Position numbers and translations under genes: made by a program
Virus record (IMG/VR): IMGVR_UViG_2585427766_000008
Coordinates: 1-16,666 of that record
Source of the DNA: a virus
Lineage: Duplodnaviria > Heunggongvirae > Uroviricota > Caudoviricetes
Length of the DNA: 16,666 nucleotides
Direction: 5' to 3' (one strand)
In this document: in pieces, positions 3,806 through 14,963 of the stretch
Layout of the letters: each line of letters starts with the position of its first letter
Position numbering within the stretch: the first letter of the stretch is position 1
The notes under the pieces: generated by a model
The model's database searches: none
What the model saw: only the letters and a program-made list of their open reading frames with translations
Told to the model about the DNA's origin: nothing

Positions 3806-4049
3806 GGGCGTCCTCCGTTTTCACTTCGCTGTCACTGCTGCTTCTGCGCTTTGGTGACTGCACAGCCGGTGTGACGGCGGGGTTAGTATCTTCTGGTACC
3901 GGCGGCAGATGCTTCAGCGCCACCAGTACCTTCACGTAGTCATGCTCCTCCGGCAGGGAAACCGCCTTCCCCGGCCAGAGCAGGATTTCGGTTCCGTCCG
4001 ACAGCGTGACGCCGCTGGCCGGGCCGGAATAGCGGTATGCTTTCATCAC
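3795..4049 (-). CDS. Hypothetical small protein (head-tail region) with low-complexity Pro/Ser-rich C-terminus
   Basis: 84-aa ORF overlapping the neighbouring genes by a few nt on both sides; conserved position ahead of the sheath gene in Mu-like gene order. Confidence 0.4.
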   Translation of the reverse strand: MMKAYRYSGPASGVTLSDGTEILLWPGKAVSLPEEHDYVKVLVALKHLPPVPEDTNPAVTPAVQSPKRRSSSDSEVKTEDAHGS

Positions 4050-4510
4050 TCGCTTTCCTCATAGTTCACTTCGGTTAACAGCGGGCCGGACGGTAAATCG
4101 CTGTCTTCGATAAAGATGCTTTCAGTCGCGAAGTCGAGGGCGTATTGCCACAGCCCCCTGACTTCACCGATAAACACCTCGCGGGTCAGCCAGATACGGC
4201 GGCGGCAGCCGGGCGGGGTGTAGCCACCGAGAATGCGGCGGACAGCATCCAGGACATTAATCGCCCCTTTTTTACCGTTGAGCTGGCGGAAGACCACCGT
4301 GACGCAGAGCTGGATAGTCTGAGACTGGATCACCGCACCGGTATCATCCGGCCTGTCAAAGCGCGAACCGGCATAGCTCAGCAGCAACGCGCCAACCGGA
4401 TGGTTCAGGCGATATTCAGCCGGTTTCTCCGGGAAGTACTCCACCTGCAGTTGCGGCAGCTTCTCGCGTAACCGGGCCAGTACCGCATCAAGGACGGGCA
4501 GAACGTTCAT
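4046..4510 (-). CDS. Mu gp37-like protein (DUF1834-like; head completion / tail attachment, function unknown)
   Basis: 154-aa ORF in the conserved slot between the gp36-like gene and the sheath. Family assignment is from memory of Mu-like gene order, not verified. Confidence 0.5.
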   Translation of the reverse strand: MNVLPVLDAVLARLREKLPQLQVEYFPEKPAEYRLNHPVGALLLSYAGSRFDRPDDTGAVIQSQTIQLCVTVVFRQLNGKKGAINVLDAVRRILGGYTPPGCRRRIWLTREVFIGEVRGLWQYALDFATESIFIEDSDLPSGPLLTEVNYEESE

Positions 4511-4957: not shown

Positions 4958-5296
4958 TCACACCCCGCGCAGGATACGAATGACGTCGCCTTCACCCCCG
5001 GCTTCATCAAGTGCAATACCACAGGATTTACCGTCGCCGGACTGCGGCACGGCTCTGGCCTGAGCATCTGACTGAACAGCCACACCACGGCTGACAGCGG
5101 CCCCGGCCTCGACAGCAATAATGCCCAGAACGCTCACCGGCGTGCTGTCGCCGGTAACAGCATCCACTTCGGCAACCCCGAGCGCTGCGGCACCGGCTTT
5201 ACAGGGGGTATTATCTGCCCCGACAAAACGCTGCTGTGCCAGTGCTGCCCCTGCCGTTACGGTTGTGATCAGAATGACCTGCTGAGTGGTTCCCAT
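4958..5296 (-). CDS. Small Ala/Gly/Val-rich head-associated protein (possible decoration or cement-type protein)
   Basis: 112-aa ORF directly after the major head gene, in the position of Mu J-like or decoration proteins. Identity is uncertain. Confidence 0.45.
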   Translation of the reverse strand: MGTTQQVILITTVTAGAALAQQRFVGADNTPCKAGAAALGVAEVDAVTGDSTPVSVLGIIAVEAGAAVSRGVAVQSDAQARAVPQSGDGKSCGIALDEAGGEGDVIRILRGV

Positions 5297-5305
5297 AACG
5301 CCTCC

Positions 5306-6259
5306 TTATTTACTGATACCGGTAATGAGATACCCGGCATCGCCACCAACCACGGCGACTTTGTAGATATCGGTATAACGGCAGTACTTCACCTTGCCAC
5401 CGGCTCCGTCGTATTTGTCGGCAACAGGCATCCCCTTACGACGCAGGGTGTAGCCGAAGGACGGCTCGTTCTCGTCCGCGCTGTCCGCCCCCGGCTGCGG
5501 TTTGCCGACATAGTGCAGCATCAGATTGTCTCCCCAGATATCCGCCGGCACGCTGTTCTTATCCATTGCCGCTTTCATGGACGGCAGGGAGACTGGGGCA
5601 CCGATGACGATCTCTTCGATCTGAAAGAGGTCCTGCAGGATTTCTGTGGTGATGCGCTTGCGTTCGTTGGCTCCGATGGCGGCCTGAATCGCCGGGTGGA
5701 ACTTCAGCAGCGCCATCACGCCGGCCCCCATGGTCATCAGGTTAGGACGCAGCCCCGTGGCCGTACGGACCGCTTCCATACCGGCTTCAATCACCCCGAT
5801 GGGGTCCCCCTTACCACCGGCCCAGCGATCACTGGCTGTCAGTTTTTTGACGTGCCCGGTACGGTAGACCTTTTCATCCTGAGCCAGACGGGCAGCGATA
5901 AGTTCACGGCGCAGGTTCACGCCATTCGTGGCGCGACGGATGGCCTTGCTCTCTTCGTTAAACATGGACTCCGCCTGCTCGCGATAGTCCACCGGCGCAG
6001 CCAGATCGTGTTCACCCAGCACCAGGTCCAGCGTGCCTGTTTTTTCACGAACCAGAACATTGCTGTCCGCCCCGACGGCACGCTCGGTGTCATATTCCAC
6101 AAAGGCGGTTTTCCCGAAGGTCGGTACACGCACGCCTTCCTTGTCCGTCAGCACGACGGGGAAAATACGTTCGCCGATGAATGCGGCATTTTTATAGCCA
6201 CGGGCGATACTGGTCAGTACCGGATCAACGACACGTTTACCTTTTAAGTAATCAGACAT
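5306..6259 (-). CDS. Major head (capsid) subunit (Mu gpT-like)
   Basis: 317-aa ORF immediately after the I protease/scaffold gene; size and position match the Mu-type major head protein. Confidence 0.75.
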   Translation of the reverse strand: MSDYLKGKRVVDPVLTSIARGYKNAAFIGERIFPVVLTDKEGVRVPTFGKTAFVEYDTERAVGADSNVLVREKTGTLDLVLGEHDLAAPVDYREQAESMFNEESKAIRRATNGVNLRRELIAARLAQDEKVYRTGHVKKLTASDRWAGGKGDPIGVIEAGMEAVRTATGLRPNLMTMGAGVMALLKFHPAIQAAIGANERKRITTEILQDLFQIEEIVIGAPVSLPSMKAAMDKNSVPADIWGDNLMLHYVGKPQPGADSADENEPSFGYTLRRKGMPVADKYDGAGGKVKYCRYTDIYKVAVVGGDAGYLITGISK

Positions 6260-6273
6260 GCTCTCTCCTTAAA

Positions 6274-6741
6274 TTACAGGCAGCGTGCGACAGCAGCCTC
6301 ATAGCTGATGCCTTCTTTTTTGGACAGGGCCACTGCTTTCTGATGCAGGGCCAGACGCTCAGGATCGGCTTCCGCAAACTCTGCCACATCCACCTTCACC
6401 GTGTCGCCGACACGCTCTTTTGTGGCCTGTTCGGCGAAATTCATCACCGGCTCCCCGTCGGAGAGCAATGAACGAAAGGCGGTGGCCAGCGGTGTGCGGC
6501 TTTCCCCCTCAGCAAACTCCACCGGCTTGTCGCCACCGGCGACGGCATCCAGCAGGGCAACCACCACGGAGGAGGCGCGGGGAGCCAGACGGCCCTCTGC
6601 GACCAGTTTTTCTGCAAAGGCCACATTGTCCTTATGCAGTTGCTCCTGTCTGACCTGTGCATCACGCGCATCGCGATCAGCAGCCTGCTGCTTCAGGCGG
6701 CGGTTCTCCTCCTGAAGGGCTTCAATCTCTTCTTTTGTCAT
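6274..6741 (-). CDS. Candidate nested scaffold protein (Mu gpZ-like) from an in-frame internal start within the I gene
   Basis: In-frame ATG at 6739-6741 (residue 217 of the I ORF) preceded by GAGGA with a 7-nt spacer. It would give a 155-aa coiled-coil-rich product (MTKEEIEALQEENRRLKQ...). Confidence 0.4.
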   Translation of the reverse strand: MTKEEIEALQEENRRLKQQAADRDARDAQVRQEQLHKDNVAFAEKLVAEGRLAPRASSVVVALLDAVAGGDKPVEFAEGESRTPLATAFRSLLSDGEPVMNFAEQATKERVGDTVKVDVAEFAEADPERLALHQKAVALSKKEGISYEAAVARCL

Positions 6742-7389
6742 CGATGATTCCTCGTTACTTGCGGAAGACGGCACCTGGCCTGTCTCACTGAATTGCGCAC
6801 CTGCTGCATCCTGCGACGGTGTGTCGCGGTACGCCTCTTCGCGCAGATTGTTGAGCTGCCATTCCGGCAGGACTTTTTCTGCTTCGTCCAGACTGAAGCG
6901 GGCGATCAGAAAATCGCGCAGCTTTCCCCACAGGGAGGCATTCGTGATGGCCTGCCAGTCGGCGAACTCCACCACACCTTCTTCCTGCTCACTGAAGGAC
7001 ACCTGTTTCAGCCCCTTGACGGAAGGTGGCTGTGCCCCGAGAAAGCCCACATGGCGCAGGTAGAGCACGCCGGGCTTCGGATTGGACGGTGAATCCGGGA
7101 GGTAGAAAGAGGCGGACACTTTTTTGAATCGTCCGTCGGTGACCATCTCAGCAAACTGCGGGTCCAGCTGGGCAGGCTCTGCCATCAGATCGACGCCGCT
7201 GAGCGACAGGGCTTTCACCCAGCCCCACGCCGGGTCTTCCGTTCTGGGATGACCAATCACGAGTGGTGCTTCATGGACGGACGGGTCATAGGCTTTCACG
7301 CAGGCGGCAAGATCGTCTGGCGTGAACGGCAGTTTTTTGCCGTGCATATCGGTATGAGTACCGGCTTTAAAAATGTGAATGGCTGACAT
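6274..7389 (-). CDS. Head maturation protease / scaffold protein (Mu gpI-like)
   Basis: 371-aa ORF with a protease-like N-terminal region and an Ala/Glu/Arg-rich coiled-coil C-terminal third; it sits between G and the major head gene as in Mu. Confidence 0.8.
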   Translation of the reverse strand: MSAIHIFKAGTHTDMHGKKLPFTPDDLAACVKAYDPSVHEAPLVIGHPRTEDPAWGWVKALSLSGVDLMAEPAQLDPQFAEMVTDGRFKKVSASFYLPDSPSNPKPGVLYLRHVGFLGAQPPSVKGLKQVSFSEQEEGVVEFADWQAITNASLWGKLRDFLIARFSLDEAEKVLPEWQLNNLREEAYRDTPSQDAAGAQFSETGQVPSSASNEESSMTKEEIEALQEENRRLKQQAADRDARDAQVRQEQLHKDNVAFAEKLVAEGRLAPRASSVVVALLDAVAGGDKPVEFAEGESRTPLATAFRSLLSDGEPVMNFAEQATKERVGDTVKVDVAEFAEADPERLALHQKAVALSKKEGISYEAAVARCL

Positions 7390-7525
7390 TTTGCTGTCCC
7401 GCGTTATGTTGTCGGAGACAGTTTGTGAGAAATGCAGGCCCGGCGATTTTAATCTGCTTTAGAAAACATCAGGGGAGAAGGACAGGGAAAGCAATACGGT
7501 GAACCGGAGGCGGTTATAAAACAGA
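7390..7525 (-). promoter_or_regulatory. Candidate late promoter region upstream of the I gene (PI-like)
   Basis: 136 bp of non-coding sequence between a terminator-like hairpin and the I start. It contains a -10-like TAAAAT on the minus strand. Mu has a C-dependent promoter in front of I. No activator site could be identified by eye. Confidence 0.3.
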
Positions 7526-7557
7526 GGCTGTAAAGCCTTTATAAAGGTAATACAGCC
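7526..7557 (-). terminator. Candidate rho-independent terminator after gene G (end of the lys-to-G transcription unit)
   Basis: Stem GGCTGTA/TACAGCC (7526-7532 / 7551-7557) enclosing the perfect 12-bp palindrome CCTTTATAAAGG. On the minus strand it is followed directly by UCUGUUUUAUAA. Confidence 0.45.
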
Positions 7558-7603
7558 CCTCATTCGCTGGCAATGATAAATCACCCGCCTGAAGAGAGAA
7601 AAC

Positions 7604-8062
7604 TCAGCGACGGGCCGCTGATTCAAGATGGCGGACAATGGTATCGAGGATGGGGATTACCACTTCAGGCTGTAGTTCTCCATCCCCCGTCACCGGCAGG
7701 AACGGGCGGGCCGGAAGTTCAACAGACTCATTACGCCCCGTTTTACCCCCGAACTGGTGAATGGCACCGTAAACAACGTTGGTCCCCACAACAGCCTGCC
7801 GGTCGTCATGGTCGGTTGATACTGACCCCATCAGACGCCCGGTATCCTGCAGTGTCTGCCCGTCACGCTCTTCCGCTGCCAGCGAGGGCATCCACCCCGG
7901 ACGCCCCTCATCAAGAAAGTTAAACTGTGTTTCCGCCAGCAGGGTTCCGGCAATTTTGCGCATCGCGGGCTCCAGGTCTGTGGCAGCAAGATCCAGCGCA
8001 CGGAGGCTCCGGCGCAGGGATTTATCGTTAATGGTGATACTGACCAGGTTATCGGAAGCCAT
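7604..8062 (-). CDS. Virion morphogenesis protein (Mu gpG-like)
   Basis: 152-aa ORF starting 3 nt after the F gene stop; it contains an FNFLDEGRPGW-type segment and has the size and position of Mu G. Confidence 0.7.
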   Translation of the reverse strand: MASDNLVSITINDKSLRRSLRALDLAATDLEPAMRKIAGTLLAETQFNFLDEGRPGWMPSLAAEERDGQTLQDTGRLMGSVSTDHDDRQAVVGTNVVYGAIHQFGGKTGRNESVELPARPFLPVTGDGELQPEVVIPILDTIVRHLESAARR

Positions 8063-14502: not shown

Positions 14503-14849
14503 AGTCCTGTTGCCACAGCCAGGCAGACCGCTGCAACAATCAGTGCACGGCGGATTAACGCAGCAGAAAACACCAGGTGAAGGCCGGTCTGTACCGGGAA
14601 ACGCCCTTCAGCCATCAGCCTGTCGTCATGTTTCAGGTACTGACCGGGACGGGCTTTGGGGAAGAGCGAACGGTCAAGCCAGTAACCCAGCACTGCTGCC
14701 AGCGTGATAAGTGCCAGCTTGTAGATCACAACAGGCAACTGCTGTGGCGAGACCAGAGCGATGATGCCCAGCAACAGCACTGAGGTCAGCAGCCAGCCGC
14801 TGAGGCGAGGTTTTTTAACAGGGGGAATGAATTTTTTCAGGTTTTTCAT
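14499..14849 (-). CDS. Putative holin / small membrane protein with three predicted TM helices
   Basis: The ATG at 14847-14849 is preceded by GAGGAG with a 6-nt spacer; the track's longer ORF starts at a GTG at 14882 with no RBS. The 116-aa product has three hydrophobic segments and sits first in the lysis cassette. Holin assignment is positional. Confidence 0.45.
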   Translation of the reverse strand: MKNLKKFIPPVKKPRLSGWLLTSVLLLGIIALVSPQQLPVVIYKLALITLAAVLGYWLDRSLFPKARPGQYLKHDDRLMAEGRFPVQTGLHLVFSAALIRRALIVAAVCLAVATGL

Positions 14850-14963
14850 GTGTGTCTCCTCGTTTGGTGGAGACAGCATCACAAATGTGGCGGGATACGG
14901 ATTTTAAACAGCGTTAATAGTGAAGATGTAAACGTGCACTGCATGATGACTTTGAAAGAACGA

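What the first reader, a model, noticed from the sequence alone, without database searches (positions are those of the whole stretch)
6274..6741. In-frame internal start with a strong RBS inside the protease/scaffold gene (nested scaffold candidate)
At residue 217 of the I-like ORF an ATG is preceded by GAGGA with a 7-nt spacer. The downstream 155 aa are the coiled-coil, charge-rich part expected for a scaffold. Mu is reported to make its scaffold protein Z from the 3' part of gene I in the same frame (from memory). A nested gene like this is easy to miss in annotation.
Basis: partly seen in the sequence, partly recalled or inferred. Interest (0 to 1): 0.35.

Follow-up and report, generated by a model that had tools for sequence, protein, structure and literature searches.

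The report
Nested scaffold gene inside phage protease gene
A BcepMu-type (Mu-like) prophage of E. coli carries, inside its head-protease gene, a conserved second in-frame start that should yield a separate 155-residue scaffolding protein, an arrangement already annotated in related phages but missing from E. coli records.

Summary
On the minus strand, ORF 6274-7389 (371 aa) has an in-frame ATG at 6741 (Met217), preceded by GAGGA and a 7-nt spacer. This leaves a 155-aa, 16.9-kDa C-terminal product.

Within this one sequence the site is not statistically special. Comparison with relatives is what decides it. Among 57 homologues below 85% identity, 53 have ATG or GTG at the aligned codon, and the other four have ATG plus a Shine-Dalgarno (SD) motif nearby. 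Val at that column is GTG in 34 of 35 cases, against 39% GTG elsewhere. An SD core precedes the start in 50 of 55 cases, against 8.6% background, although the upstream peptide varies.

The start lies at the end of a predicted disordered linker and the beginning of a 46-residue helix. The local mRNA is unusually unstructured.

The orthologous nested gene is already annotated in BcepMu (gp33, "Mu Z equivalent"), B3 (36Z), RcapMu (40), RcWaterboi (38) and KS10 (gp29).

The protein is not a sequence homologue of Mu gpI (no PF10123 hit). It belongs to the BcepMu gp32 family (PHROG 976), whose protease domain has a weakly supported assemblin/gpO-like fold.

No experimental proof is available here.

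The parts
6274..7389 (-). Full-length protease-scaffold ORF, 371 aa and 40.6 kDa. It is the orthologue of BcepMu gp32 (PHROG 976, 'head maturation protease').
   Evidence: Searches give the ORF. PHROG 976, E = 7e-163; about 49-50% identity to BcepMu gp32 and the phiE255 orthologue. One search gives the masses.
7397..7400 (-). Weak SD-like GGGA, 7 nt upstream of the full-length start ATG at 7389.
   Evidence: anti-SD duplex of -4.0 kcal/mol, against -5.9 for the internal site. Across 54 homologues the median is -2.65 for the best 5' start and -7.4 for the internal start.
7036..7389 (-). N-terminal beta-rich domain, residues 1-118, the predicted prohead serine protease. H47, S92 and H113 are invariant.
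   Evidence: pLDDT is mostly 75-90; the top PDB fold hits are herpesvirus assemblins (KSHV, EBV, PRV; prob 0.9-0.99, E = 6e-3 to 0.1). BFVD hits are prohead proteases. Searches give the invariant residues. H47 aligns with the catalytic H48 of P2 gpO.
6742..6828 (-). Predicted disordered, poorly conserved linker, residues 188-216, that ends at the internal start.
   Evidence: pLDDT below 50 for residues 188-216; length and sequence vary among homologues.
6749..6753 (-). Internal Shine-Dalgarno GAGGA, within codons E213-E214, with a 7-nt spacer at 6742-6748.
   Evidence: an SD core (AGGA, GGAG or GAGG) lies 6-12 nt upstream of the start in 50 of 55 homologues, against 8.6% of background codon positions, with 53 different upstream pentapeptides.
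6739..6741 (-). Internal in-frame start codon ATG (Met217).
   Evidence: ATG or GTG at this alignment column in 53 of 57 homologues, and Val there is GTG in 34 of 35 cases against 39% elsewhere; the four exceptions have SD + ATG 1, 1 or 5 codons upstream, or 26 codons downstream in B3, which carries an insertion there.
6274..6741 (-). Nested ORF of 155 aa, 16.9 kDa, pI 5.0. It is the predicted scaffolding protein and the orthologue of BcepMu gp33, B3 ORF36Z and RcapMu40.
6598..6735 (-). Long predicted helix, residues 219-264, 42% charged. It holds a conserved I222/L225/N229/L232 zipper-like stretch, so it may form a coiled coil.
   Evidence: helix 219-264; composition; N229 and L232 invariant.
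6280..6363 (-). C-terminal helix-turn-helix, residues 343-370, predicted with confidence. It is a candidate capsid-binding end of the scaffold, which is an inference.
   Evidence: H343-359 and H363-370, pLDDT about 81-88. D342, Y363 and A366 are invariant.
5306..6259 (-). Major head protein gene immediately downstream. Listed for context, as the presumed partner of the scaffold.
   Evidence: PHROG 1005, E = 9e-130; weak Phage_cap_E match.

Best explanation
The window is the head-morphogenesis module of a BcepMu-type (Bcepmuvirus) transposable prophage of E. coli. Gene 6274-7389 (minus strand) is read from two in-frame starts on one late mRNA.

Initiation at ATG 7389, which has a weak SD, gives the 371-aa full-length protein. 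This consists of an N-terminal prohead serine protease, a disordered linker and a C-terminal helical scaffold domain.

Initiation at ATG 6741 (Met217) has the stronger GAGGA SD and lies in unstructured mRNA. It gives the 155-aa scaffold domain alone, probably in molar excess.

The free scaffold is expected to co-assemble with the major head protein (gene 5306-6259). Its shared C-terminus would carry a few copies of the protease into the procapsid. The protease would then digest the scaffold and trim the capsid proteins at maturation.

Shown here: the anatomy, the conservation of the start and SD at nucleotide level, the domain boundary, and orthology to annotated nested genes.

Inferred: that the short protein is made, that it exceeds the long one, that it acts as scaffold, and that the N-domain is an active protease.
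For: (1) Sequence. GAGGA-7 nt-ATG lies in frame at residue 217.

(2) Start-codon conservation. In 57 homologues below 85% identity, drawn from phage records, bacterial genomes and IMG/VR contigs, the aligned column is ATG or GTG in 53. The next best column reaches 22 for start codons and 8 for start plus SD. The four exceptions have SD + ATG 1, 1 or 5 codons upstream, or 26 codons downstream in B3.

(3) Codon choice. Val at that column is GTG in 34 of 35 cases, against 542 of 1393 elsewhere, which is about 1e-14 if the sequences were independent. The single GTC is the misaligned B3.

(4) SD conservation. An SD core at 6-12 nt spacing occurs in 50 of 55 homologues, against 8.6% background, while the upstream pentapeptide has 53 different sequences.

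(5) Relative SD strength. The internal SD is stronger than the best available 5' SD in 43 of 54 homologues, with medians of -7.4 and -2.65 kcal/mol.

(6) mRNA structure. The -30..+33 region around Met217 folds at -6.9 kcal/mol, against a gene mean of -17.7 +/- 4.7 (99th percentile). The median z across 55 homologues is +1.5.

(7) Structure model. AlphaFold2 gives a beta domain at 1-118, a disordered linker at 188-216 and a helix at 219-264 that starts right after Met217.

(8) Annotated orthologues. An in-frame nested CDS is annotated at the aligned position in BcepMu gp33 'nested ... Mu Z equivalent', RcapMu40 and RcWaterboi gp38 'putative scaffolding protein'. B3 ORF36Z starts at the same linker-helix boundary. 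[quoted passage not shown] The annotated starts are tabulated.

(9) Precedents. Mu I/Z is annotated in NC_000929 and cited as a Mu feature in PMC4378225. Nested protease-scaffold genes in lambda, HSV-1 and HFTV1 are described in a bioRxiv preprint (doi 10.64898/2026.09.13.751334). Ribosome profiling and proteomics there found the C-terminal domain 7.8-fold more abundant than the N-terminal domain in infected cells.

(10) Protease identity. PHROG 976 'head maturation protease' at E = 7e-163, and Foldseek top PDB hits to herpesvirus assemblins.

(11) Motif use in this phage. The other four GAGGA-N5-9-ATG sites on the coding strand of the window all mark ORF starts.
Against: - No experimental data were available for this phage or its close relatives: no N-terminal sequence, proteomics or ribosome profiling. 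The primary BcepMu, B3 and RcapMu papers are not in the held library.
- Within this gene the SD pairing energy of Met217 is matched or beaten by other in-frame start codons.
- The sister clade at about 74% identity keeps the ATG but has only a weak SD-like AAGAG at -2.9 kcal/mol.
- The open mRNA structure is partly confounded by the A/G-rich codons of a charged segment.
- The homologues are phylogenetically related, so the binomial P values overstate significance.
- The AF2 model has low overall confidence (mean pLDDT 66.5, pTM 0.33), and the PDB fold matches are weak (E >= 6e-3).
- P2 gpO, a possible distant relative, works as a single protease-scaffold fusion that is synthesised as one full-length protein.
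Confidence: 0.82

Rival explanations
1. There is no internal initiation. Any free C-terminal fragment arises only by autoproteolysis of the full-length protein, as in P2 gpO. The SD + ATG is a by-product of coding for a Glu-rich linker followed by a hydrophobic residue.
For: P2 gpO is made as one full-length protease-scaffold fusion and cleaves itself. A weak profile match links the family to gpO, with hhalign E = 1.5e-3 and the catalytic His aligned. Other in-frame start codons in the gene have similar SD energies.
Against: Only M or V occupies the column, apart from the 4 of 57 homologues whose start codon lies at a neighbouring position, and Val there is GTG in 34 of 35 cases against 39% elsewhere. 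The SD core is kept in 50 of 55 homologues although the encoded pentapeptide differs in 53 ways. No other column comes close, at 8 of 57. Amino-acid selection alone does not predict this.
Confidence: 0.05
2. Internal initiation occurs, but the 155-aa product is not the assembly scaffold. It could instead regulate or inhibit the protease by pairing with its C-terminal domain, or act as a portal-incorporation factor.
For: The scaffold role rests only on analogy and on helical, charged composition. No Pfam or PDB sequence match exists for the C-terminal part.
Against: No other scaffold candidate lies in the head module between the portal and major head genes. The position directly upstream of the major head gene, the size, the helicity and the conserved C-terminal helix-turn-helix fit known scaffolds. 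Orthologues are annotated as Mu Z equivalents.
Confidence: 0.08
3. The separately encoded 112-aa protein (4958-5296, PHROG 673, labelled 'head scaffolding protein') is the real scaffold, and the nested product is dispensable.
For: PHROG 673 carries the label 'head scaffolding protein' at E = 2.6e-41. RefSeq gives B3 ORF37 the same label.
Against: The same protein matches Pfam PF09956 Phage_cement_2 (DUF2190) at E = 2e-13, which is a decoration/cement family. RcapMu41 is annotated as a DUF2190 protein. PMC4378225 argues that the syntenic small protein of Pseudomonas Mu-like phages is a virion decoration protein found by mass spectrometry. This reading does not explain the conserved internal start.
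Confidence: 0.03
4. The short protein is made from its own transcript, driven by a promoter inside the protease coding region as for HSV-1 UL26.5, rather than by internal initiation on the full-length mRNA.
For: The herpesvirus precedent, which is established knowledge. Phage late promoters are activator-dependent and would be missed by a sigma-70 scan.
Against: No sigma-70-like promoter was found on the minus strand within 6742-7389. A canonical SD at the right spacing is sufficient for internal initiation in bacteria. This rival does not exclude the main explanation, because the same start codon would be used.
Confidence: 0.04

Closest known systems
Burkholderia phage BcepMu gp32 / gp33 (also phiE255 gp6, B3 ORF36/36Z, RcapMu39/40, RcWaterboi 37/38, KS10 gp28/gp29)
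   Same: These are orthologous proteins, at 49-50% identity to BcepMu and phiE255 and 35-37% to B3 and RcapMu over the full length. The gene sits in the same position between the G-like gene and the major head gene. The nested in-frame start falls at the same alignment column in BcepMu, RcapMu and RcWaterboi, and the nested products are 151-156 aa with an SD upstream.
   Different: This copy uses ATG rather than GTG and GAGGA rather than GGAG/AGGAG. The nested CDS is not annotated in the E. coli records. Phage PhiKM calls the gene 'hypothetical protein'. The listed RefSeq E. coli rows, out of 637 matching genomes, are also 'hypothetical protein'. Here, as in BcepMu, the DUF2190 gene follows the major head gene, whereas in B3 and RcapMu it precedes it.
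Phage Mu gene I (protease) / Z (scaffold, p20)
   Same: Both share the same genome context (F, G, an intergenic gap, the protease-scaffold gene, then the major head gene). Both have an in-frame internal start giving a C-terminal scaffold (and PMC4378225).
   Different: No sequence homology is detectable: BLASTP E = 1.1, no PF10123 hit, hhalign probability 0.15%. Mu Z starts at residue 179 of 361 and is 183 aa. The only link is a fold-level hit to a COG4388 'Mu-like prophage I protein' in BFVD at E = 6e-5.
Phage lambda C / Nu3 and herpesvirus UL26 / UL26.5
   Same: They share the nested in-frame protease-scaffold logic, in which a common C-terminus targets the protease into the procapsid and the scaffold is in excess. 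This is summarised in the bioRxiv preprint doi 10.64898/2026.09.13.751334. The predicted N-domain has herpesvirus assemblins as its best PDB fold hits.
   Different: Lambda C is an unrelated protease type (ClpP/S49 superfamily, from my own knowledge). The herpesvirus short form comes from its own promoter and transcript (from my own knowledge). No sequence similarity was found.
Phage P2 gpO (PF05929, protease-scaffold fusion)
   Same: Both have an N-terminal serine protease, a middle region and a C-terminal scaffold in one polypeptide. A weak profile match aligns invariant H47 with the catalytic H48 of gpO. Some relatives are named 'GPO family capsid scaffolding protein'.
   Different: gpO is described as made only as the full-length protein and then self-cleaved. 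The window protein does not reach Pfam significance. A relative at 53% identity scores 27.5 bits against a gathering cut-off of 33.6.

Membership tests
Nested in-frame protease/scaffold gene pairs of tailed phages (Mu I/Z, lambda C/Nu3, BcepMu gp32/gp33) | The long ORF has an N-terminal prohead protease domain. | tested here: met
   PHROG 976 'head maturation protease' at E = 7e-163. The top Foldseek PDB hits are herpesvirus assemblins, weak but consistent. BFVD hits are prohead proteases. H47, S92 and H113 are invariant. Catalytic activity itself was not tested.
Nested in-frame protease/scaffold gene pairs of tailed phages (Mu I/Z, lambda C/Nu3, BcepMu gp32/gp33) | An in-frame internal start codon with a ribosome-binding site lies at the boundary between the protease part and the scaffold part. 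| tested here: met
   GAGGA-7 nt-ATG at Met217. The site sits at the end of the disordered linker 188-216 and the start of helix 219-264.
Nested in-frame protease/scaffold gene pairs of tailed phages (Mu I/Z, lambda C/Nu3, BcepMu gp32/gp33) | The internal start and RBS are conserved among relatives beyond what the protein sequence requires. | tested here: met
   ATG or GTG at the column in 53 of 57 homologues, and all 57 when neighbouring codons are counted. GTG in 34 of 35 Val. An SD core in 50 of 55 against 8.6% background.
Nested in-frame protease/scaffold gene pairs of tailed phages (Mu I/Z, lambda C/Nu3, BcepMu gp32/gp33) | The C-terminal product is a helical, elongated scaffold-type protein encoded next to the major capsid gene. 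| tested here: inconclusive
   It is predicted to be largely helical with a 46-residue helix and a C-terminal helix-turn-helix. It is 33% charged. The major head gene starts 14 nt downstream. Scaffold activity cannot be read from sequence.
Nested in-frame protease/scaffold gene pairs of tailed phages (Mu I/Z, lambda C/Nu3, BcepMu gp32/gp33) | The short protein is actually synthesised from the internal start. | not testable with these tools
   This needs initiation profiling, N-terminal sequencing or mass spectrometry. No such data were found for this family in the held literature.
BcepMu gp32/gp33 orthologous group (PHROG 976) | Full-length sequence homology to BcepMu gp32, with the nested start at the aligned position. 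| tested here: met
   tblastn gives 48.8% identity over residues 4-366 at E = 2e-101. The gp33 GTG start aligns with Met217.
Mu gpI family (Pfam PF10123 Mu-like_Pro) | A significant match to PF10123, or to Mu gpI itself. | tested here: not met
   There is no Pfam hit even at E <= 10, while Mu gpI itself scores 330 bits. BLASTP E = 1.1. hhalign probability is 0.15%. The window protein works like Mu I/Z but is not a member of this family.
P2 gpO family (Pfam PF05929 Phage_GPO) | A match to the GPO serine peptidase domain, with the Asp-His-Ser catalytic residues. | tested here: inconclusive
   The window protein has no Pfam hit. Relative P0062 scores 27.5 bits, below the 33.6 cut-off. hhalign against gpO gives E = 1.5e-3 and probability 17%, with H47 aligned to H48 and the gpO Ser107 two residues from invariant S92. 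No clear Asp equivalent was found.

The most novel reading that the evidence does not exclude
The most novel reading not excluded concerns how the protease:scaffold ratio is set. The BcepMu gp32 lineage is a Pfam-less prohead protease-scaffold family found in about 12% of complete E. coli genomes. In this lineage the ratio may be hard-wired purely at translation initiation. The components would be a deliberately weak 5' SD, a strong internal SD and locally unstructured mRNA. Lineage-specific tuning through ATG versus GTG and through SD strength would then act as an evolvable stoichiometry dial. For example, the sister clade at about 74% identity keeps the ATG but has almost lost the SD. This would make the prophage a convenient E. 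coli model for how nested genes fix assembly stoichiometry.
Probability: 0.35. Interest if true: 0.3.

Novelty: new member of a known kind. Interest (0 to 1): 0.15.

Why it matters
The practical value lies mainly in annotation. This prophage gene is present in 637 of 5,426 complete E. coli genomes. Every record row listed there, and the phage PhiKM record, calls it a single 'hypothetical protein' with no nested scaffold CDS. Adding the nested gene would complete the head-assembly gene set of a very common E. coli, Salmonella and Enterobacterales prophage type.

Conceptually it adds no new principle. Nested protease-scaffold genes are established for Mu and lambda and are already annotated in BcepMu, B3, RcapMu and KS10.

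The comparative numbers obtained here are a clean, reusable signature for finding such nested starts automatically. They are the exclusive use of GTG, the SD kept over a variable peptide, and the weak 5' SD against the strong internal SD.

Tried and rejected
- Pfam and NCBIfam scans of the full protein and both halves gave nothing significant. The only entry was a ZapB coiled-coil match at E = 0.05 for the C-terminal part.
- A sequence search of the PDB gave no hit at E <= 1.
- Direct and profile comparisons with Mu gpI showed no homology, so 'Mu I homologue' was rejected.
- The profile comparison with P2 gpO was only suggestive and is left as inconclusive.
- The sigma-70 promoter scan of 6200-7700 found no minus-strand promoter inside the gene. 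The single hit is on the plus strand. This gives no support for a separate scaffold transcript, although activator-dependent late promoters are not covered by the scan.
- An Rfam scan of the whole window found no RNA family.
- The primary papers on B3 (PMC516594 and its DOI) were not held. The primary BcepMu and RcapMu papers did not turn up in full-text searches, and no proteomic or N-terminal data for this family were found.
- The exact 155-aa sequence is present in public protein collections, on 577 contigs. In the places examined it is called as a separate gene only where the upstream protease part is broken into truncated ORFs. That pattern is likely frameshifts or assembly errors. It was therefore rejected as independent evidence that the nested gene is expressed.
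- L012 (Enterobacter asburiae) first looked like a free-standing scaffold gene. It is a deletion that fuses the N-terminus of the G-like gene to the scaffold part.

Full report
**What is in the sequence.**
The feature lies on the minus strand. ORF 6274-7389 encodes 371 aa. Codon 217 is ATG (6741-6739), and the preceding sequence reads aacGAGGAatcatcgATG. That places GAGGA at 6753-6749 with a 7-nt spacer. The in-frame remainder is 155 aa, 16.9 kDa, pI 5.0.

**Is it more than chance?**
- Within this window alone, no. GAGGA-N5-9-ATG occurs 6 times against 2.7 +/- 1.65 expected, and 11 of 200 shuffles reach 6.
- Several other in-frame ATG or GTG codons in the gene pair with the anti-SD at least as well: V130 at -6.8 and M316 at -7.3 kcal/mol, against -5.9 for M217.
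- Two observations from this sequence alone do favour the site. The other four minus-strand matches to the motif all sit at ORF starts (3805, 4046, 8062, 14849). The -30..+33 mRNA segment around Met217 is among the least structured in the gene, at -6.9 kcal/mol against a mean of -17.7 +/- 4.7 (99th percentile).

**Context.**
The window is the late, head-and-tail region of a Bcepmuvirus-type transposable prophage. The gene is 99.4% identical to Escherichia phage PhiKM. Reading along the minus strand, the genes are:
- small and large terminase;
- Mu-type portal (PF06074);
- Mu F-like protein (PF04233);
- G-like virion morphogenesis protein (PF05069);
- a 214-bp gap;
- the 371-aa gene;
- the major head protein (PHROG 1005);
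- a DUF2190/cement protein;
- Mu gp36-like protein.

The gene is present in 637 of 5,426 complete E. coli genomes. The record rows listed there call it 'hypothetical protein'.

**Comparative test, the decisive evidence.**
I collected homologous loci with their DNA from phage records, GTDB genomes and IMG/VR contigs. I extracted the ORFs and aligned 86 distinct proteins, reduced to 57 representatives below 85% identity.
- At the column of Met217, 53 of 57 have ATG or GTG, and 51 of 57 also have an anti-SD duplex of -5 kcal/mol or stronger. The next best column reaches only 8 of 57.
- The four exceptions each carry an SD + ATG nearby. It lies one codon upstream in L081 and L086, five codons upstream in L084, and 26 codons downstream in B3, where an insertion displaces the alignment and where ORF36Z is annotated.
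- Valine at this column is encoded by GTG in 34 of 35 cases, and the one GTC is the misaligned B3. GTG accounts for only 39% of 1,393 other Val codons in the same genes.
- A 4-nt SD core lies 6-12 nt upstream in 50 of 55, against 8.6% of 20,137 background codon positions. The five residues encoded there have 53 different sequences. Selection therefore acts on the nucleotides and not on the peptide.
- The sequences are related, so the nominal P values (1e-14 to 1e-47) overstate independence. The pattern is nevertheless unambiguous.
- The internal SD is stronger than the best candidate 5' SD in 43 of 54 homologues, with medians of -7.4 and -2.65 kcal/mol. This fits a need for more scaffold than protease.
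- Local mRNA structure is reduced around the internal start in most homologues, with a median z of +1.5. This is partly a composition effect.

**Protein anatomy.**
AlphaFold2 was run with a 39-sequence alignment and gave mean pLDDT 66.5 and pTM 0.33. The model shows:
- a confident beta-rich domain at 1-118;
- a low-confidence loop at 119-145;
- helices at 145-187;
- a disordered linker at 188-216;
- a 46-residue helix at 219-264 that starts directly after Met217;
- further helices ending in a confident helix-turn-helix at 343-370.

The whole model's best PDB fold matches are herpesvirus assemblins, with probability 0.9-0.99 but E of only 6e-3 to 0.1 and alignments of about 115-142 columns. BFVD matches are phage 'prohead scaffold and peptidase' and prohead protease proteins, including a COG4388 Mu-I-like protein. 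H47, S92 and H113 are invariant. The internal start therefore falls on a domain boundary between a protease module and a helical module. The tblastn hits show the N-terminal module attached to unrelated C-termini in cyanophages and Stenotrophomonas phages, which fits a modular design.

**Comparison with what is known.**
- The nested gene is already annotated in relatives: BcepMu gp33 ('nested conserved protein ... Mu Z equivalent'), B3 ORF36Z, RcapMu40 and RcWaterboi gp38 ('putative scaffolding protein'). The RcapMu40 note reads 'start site internal to RcapMu39; annotated based on ribosome binding site and similarity'.
- The annotated starts of BcepMu, RcapMu and RcWaterboi align with Met217. 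The nested products in all four annotated records are 151-156 aa.
- Mu itself is annotated with Z (p20) starting inside I. PMC4378225 lists this as a hallmark of Mu.
- The window protein is not a sequence homologue of Mu gpI. It has no PF10123 hit, BLASTP gives E = 1.1 and hhalign gives a probability of 0.15%.
- It belongs to the BcepMu gp32 family (PHROG 976), which has no Pfam model. A weak profile match to P2 gpO aligns H47 with the catalytic H48 of gpO. gpO is described as made only as a full-length fusion.

**Mechanism proposed.**
One late mRNA is read from two in-frame initiation sites. The weak 5' site yields a small amount of protease-linker-scaffold fusion, and the strong internal site yields free scaffold. 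Through the shared C-terminal domain, the fusion co-assembles with the scaffold and the major head protein, which places the protease inside the procapsid. The protease then removes the scaffold. This is the logic of lambda C/Nu3 and of Mu I/Z. Ribosome profiling has recently demonstrated the same logic for an archaeal tailed virus (bioRxiv doi 10.64898/2026.09.13.751334). The anatomy, conservation and orthology are shown here. Synthesis of the short protein, the ratio of the two products and both functions are inferred.

**Rivals.**
- Autoproteolysis alone, in the gpO style, does not explain the exclusive use of GTG or the conserved SD.
- A separate internal promoter finds no support in a sigma-70 scan, and it would use the same start codon anyway.
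- The 112-aa neighbour labelled 'head scaffolding protein' by PHROG 673 matches the Pfam cement/DUF2190 family instead.
- The 155-aa sequence does occur as a called gene on 577 public contigs. In the places inspected, this happens only where the protease part is interrupted.

**Verdict.**
The kind is already known and is annotated in orthologues, but not in the E. coli records. Interest is low, and the main value is correcting the annotation of a very common prophage.

Noticed in passing
window 7390-7603 (minus strand), especially 7528-7555 and 7447-7463: The 214-bp gap between the G-like gene and the protease gene is mostly diverged among relatives but keeps two conserved blocks as far out as BcepMu. 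One is a 28-bp imperfect palindrome, CTGTATTACCTTTATAAAGGCTTTACAG. The other is TCTAAAGCAGATTAAAA. Both are unique in the window. In Mu the equivalent G-I gap carries an annotated gyrase cut site and, from my own knowledge, the late promoter P_I. The blocks could be a late-activator site, a late promoter or a gyrase-site analogue.
   Followed up: partly
window 7604-7621 (minus strand): A terminator-like hairpin, TCAGCGGCCCGTCGCTGA followed by a T-rich tail, overlaps the end of the G-like gene. It is conserved in the closest relatives. It may separate two late transcription units.
   Followed up: no
window 4044-4060 and 14847-14861 (minus strand): GAGGA-N-ATG motifs suggest the true starts of two ORFs are ATG 4046 and ATG 14849. 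The mechanical ORF list starts them at the upstream GTGs 4049 and 14882.
   Followed up: no
window 4958-5296 (minus strand): The 112-aa protein has conflicting labels. PHROG 673 calls it 'head scaffolding protein', Pfam PF09956 calls it a 'Phage cement protein', and the PhiKM record calls it 'putative membrane protein'. A decoration/cement role seems most likely. Its gene follows the major head gene here and in BcepMu but precedes it in B3 and RcapMu.
   Followed up: partly
L012 2171-2980 (Enterobacter asburiae TN152): A prophage variant carries a deletion that fuses the first roughly 110 residues of the G-like protein in frame to the scaffold part. The junction lies just upstream of the QQENDA-MTKEE start region, so the intergenic gap and the whole protease domain are removed. 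This is probably a defective prophage.
   Followed up: partly
L010, L033, L036: The homologous genes carry in-frame stop codons within the region that still aligns, which suggests decaying prophages. L010 is from Candidatus Symbiopectobacterium endolongispinus. L033 and L036 are IMG/VR viral contigs.
   Followed up: no
L096-L101 (Logan and ENA assemblies of the same prophage): In many public assemblies the protease part is split into truncated ORFs of 126-216 aa, and gene callers then start a separate gene exactly at Met217. Some neighbouring genes are also split, which points to indel errors in those assemblies.
   Followed up: partly
L007, L020-L026, L032, L042 (sister clade at about 74% identity): This clade keeps the internal ATG, but its SD is degraded to AAGAG at -2.9 kcal/mol, while the local mRNA stays very unstructured, with z of 2.2-2.6 in the two clade representatives tested, L007 and L008. 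Initiation there may rely on accessibility rather than on SD pairing.
   Followed up: no
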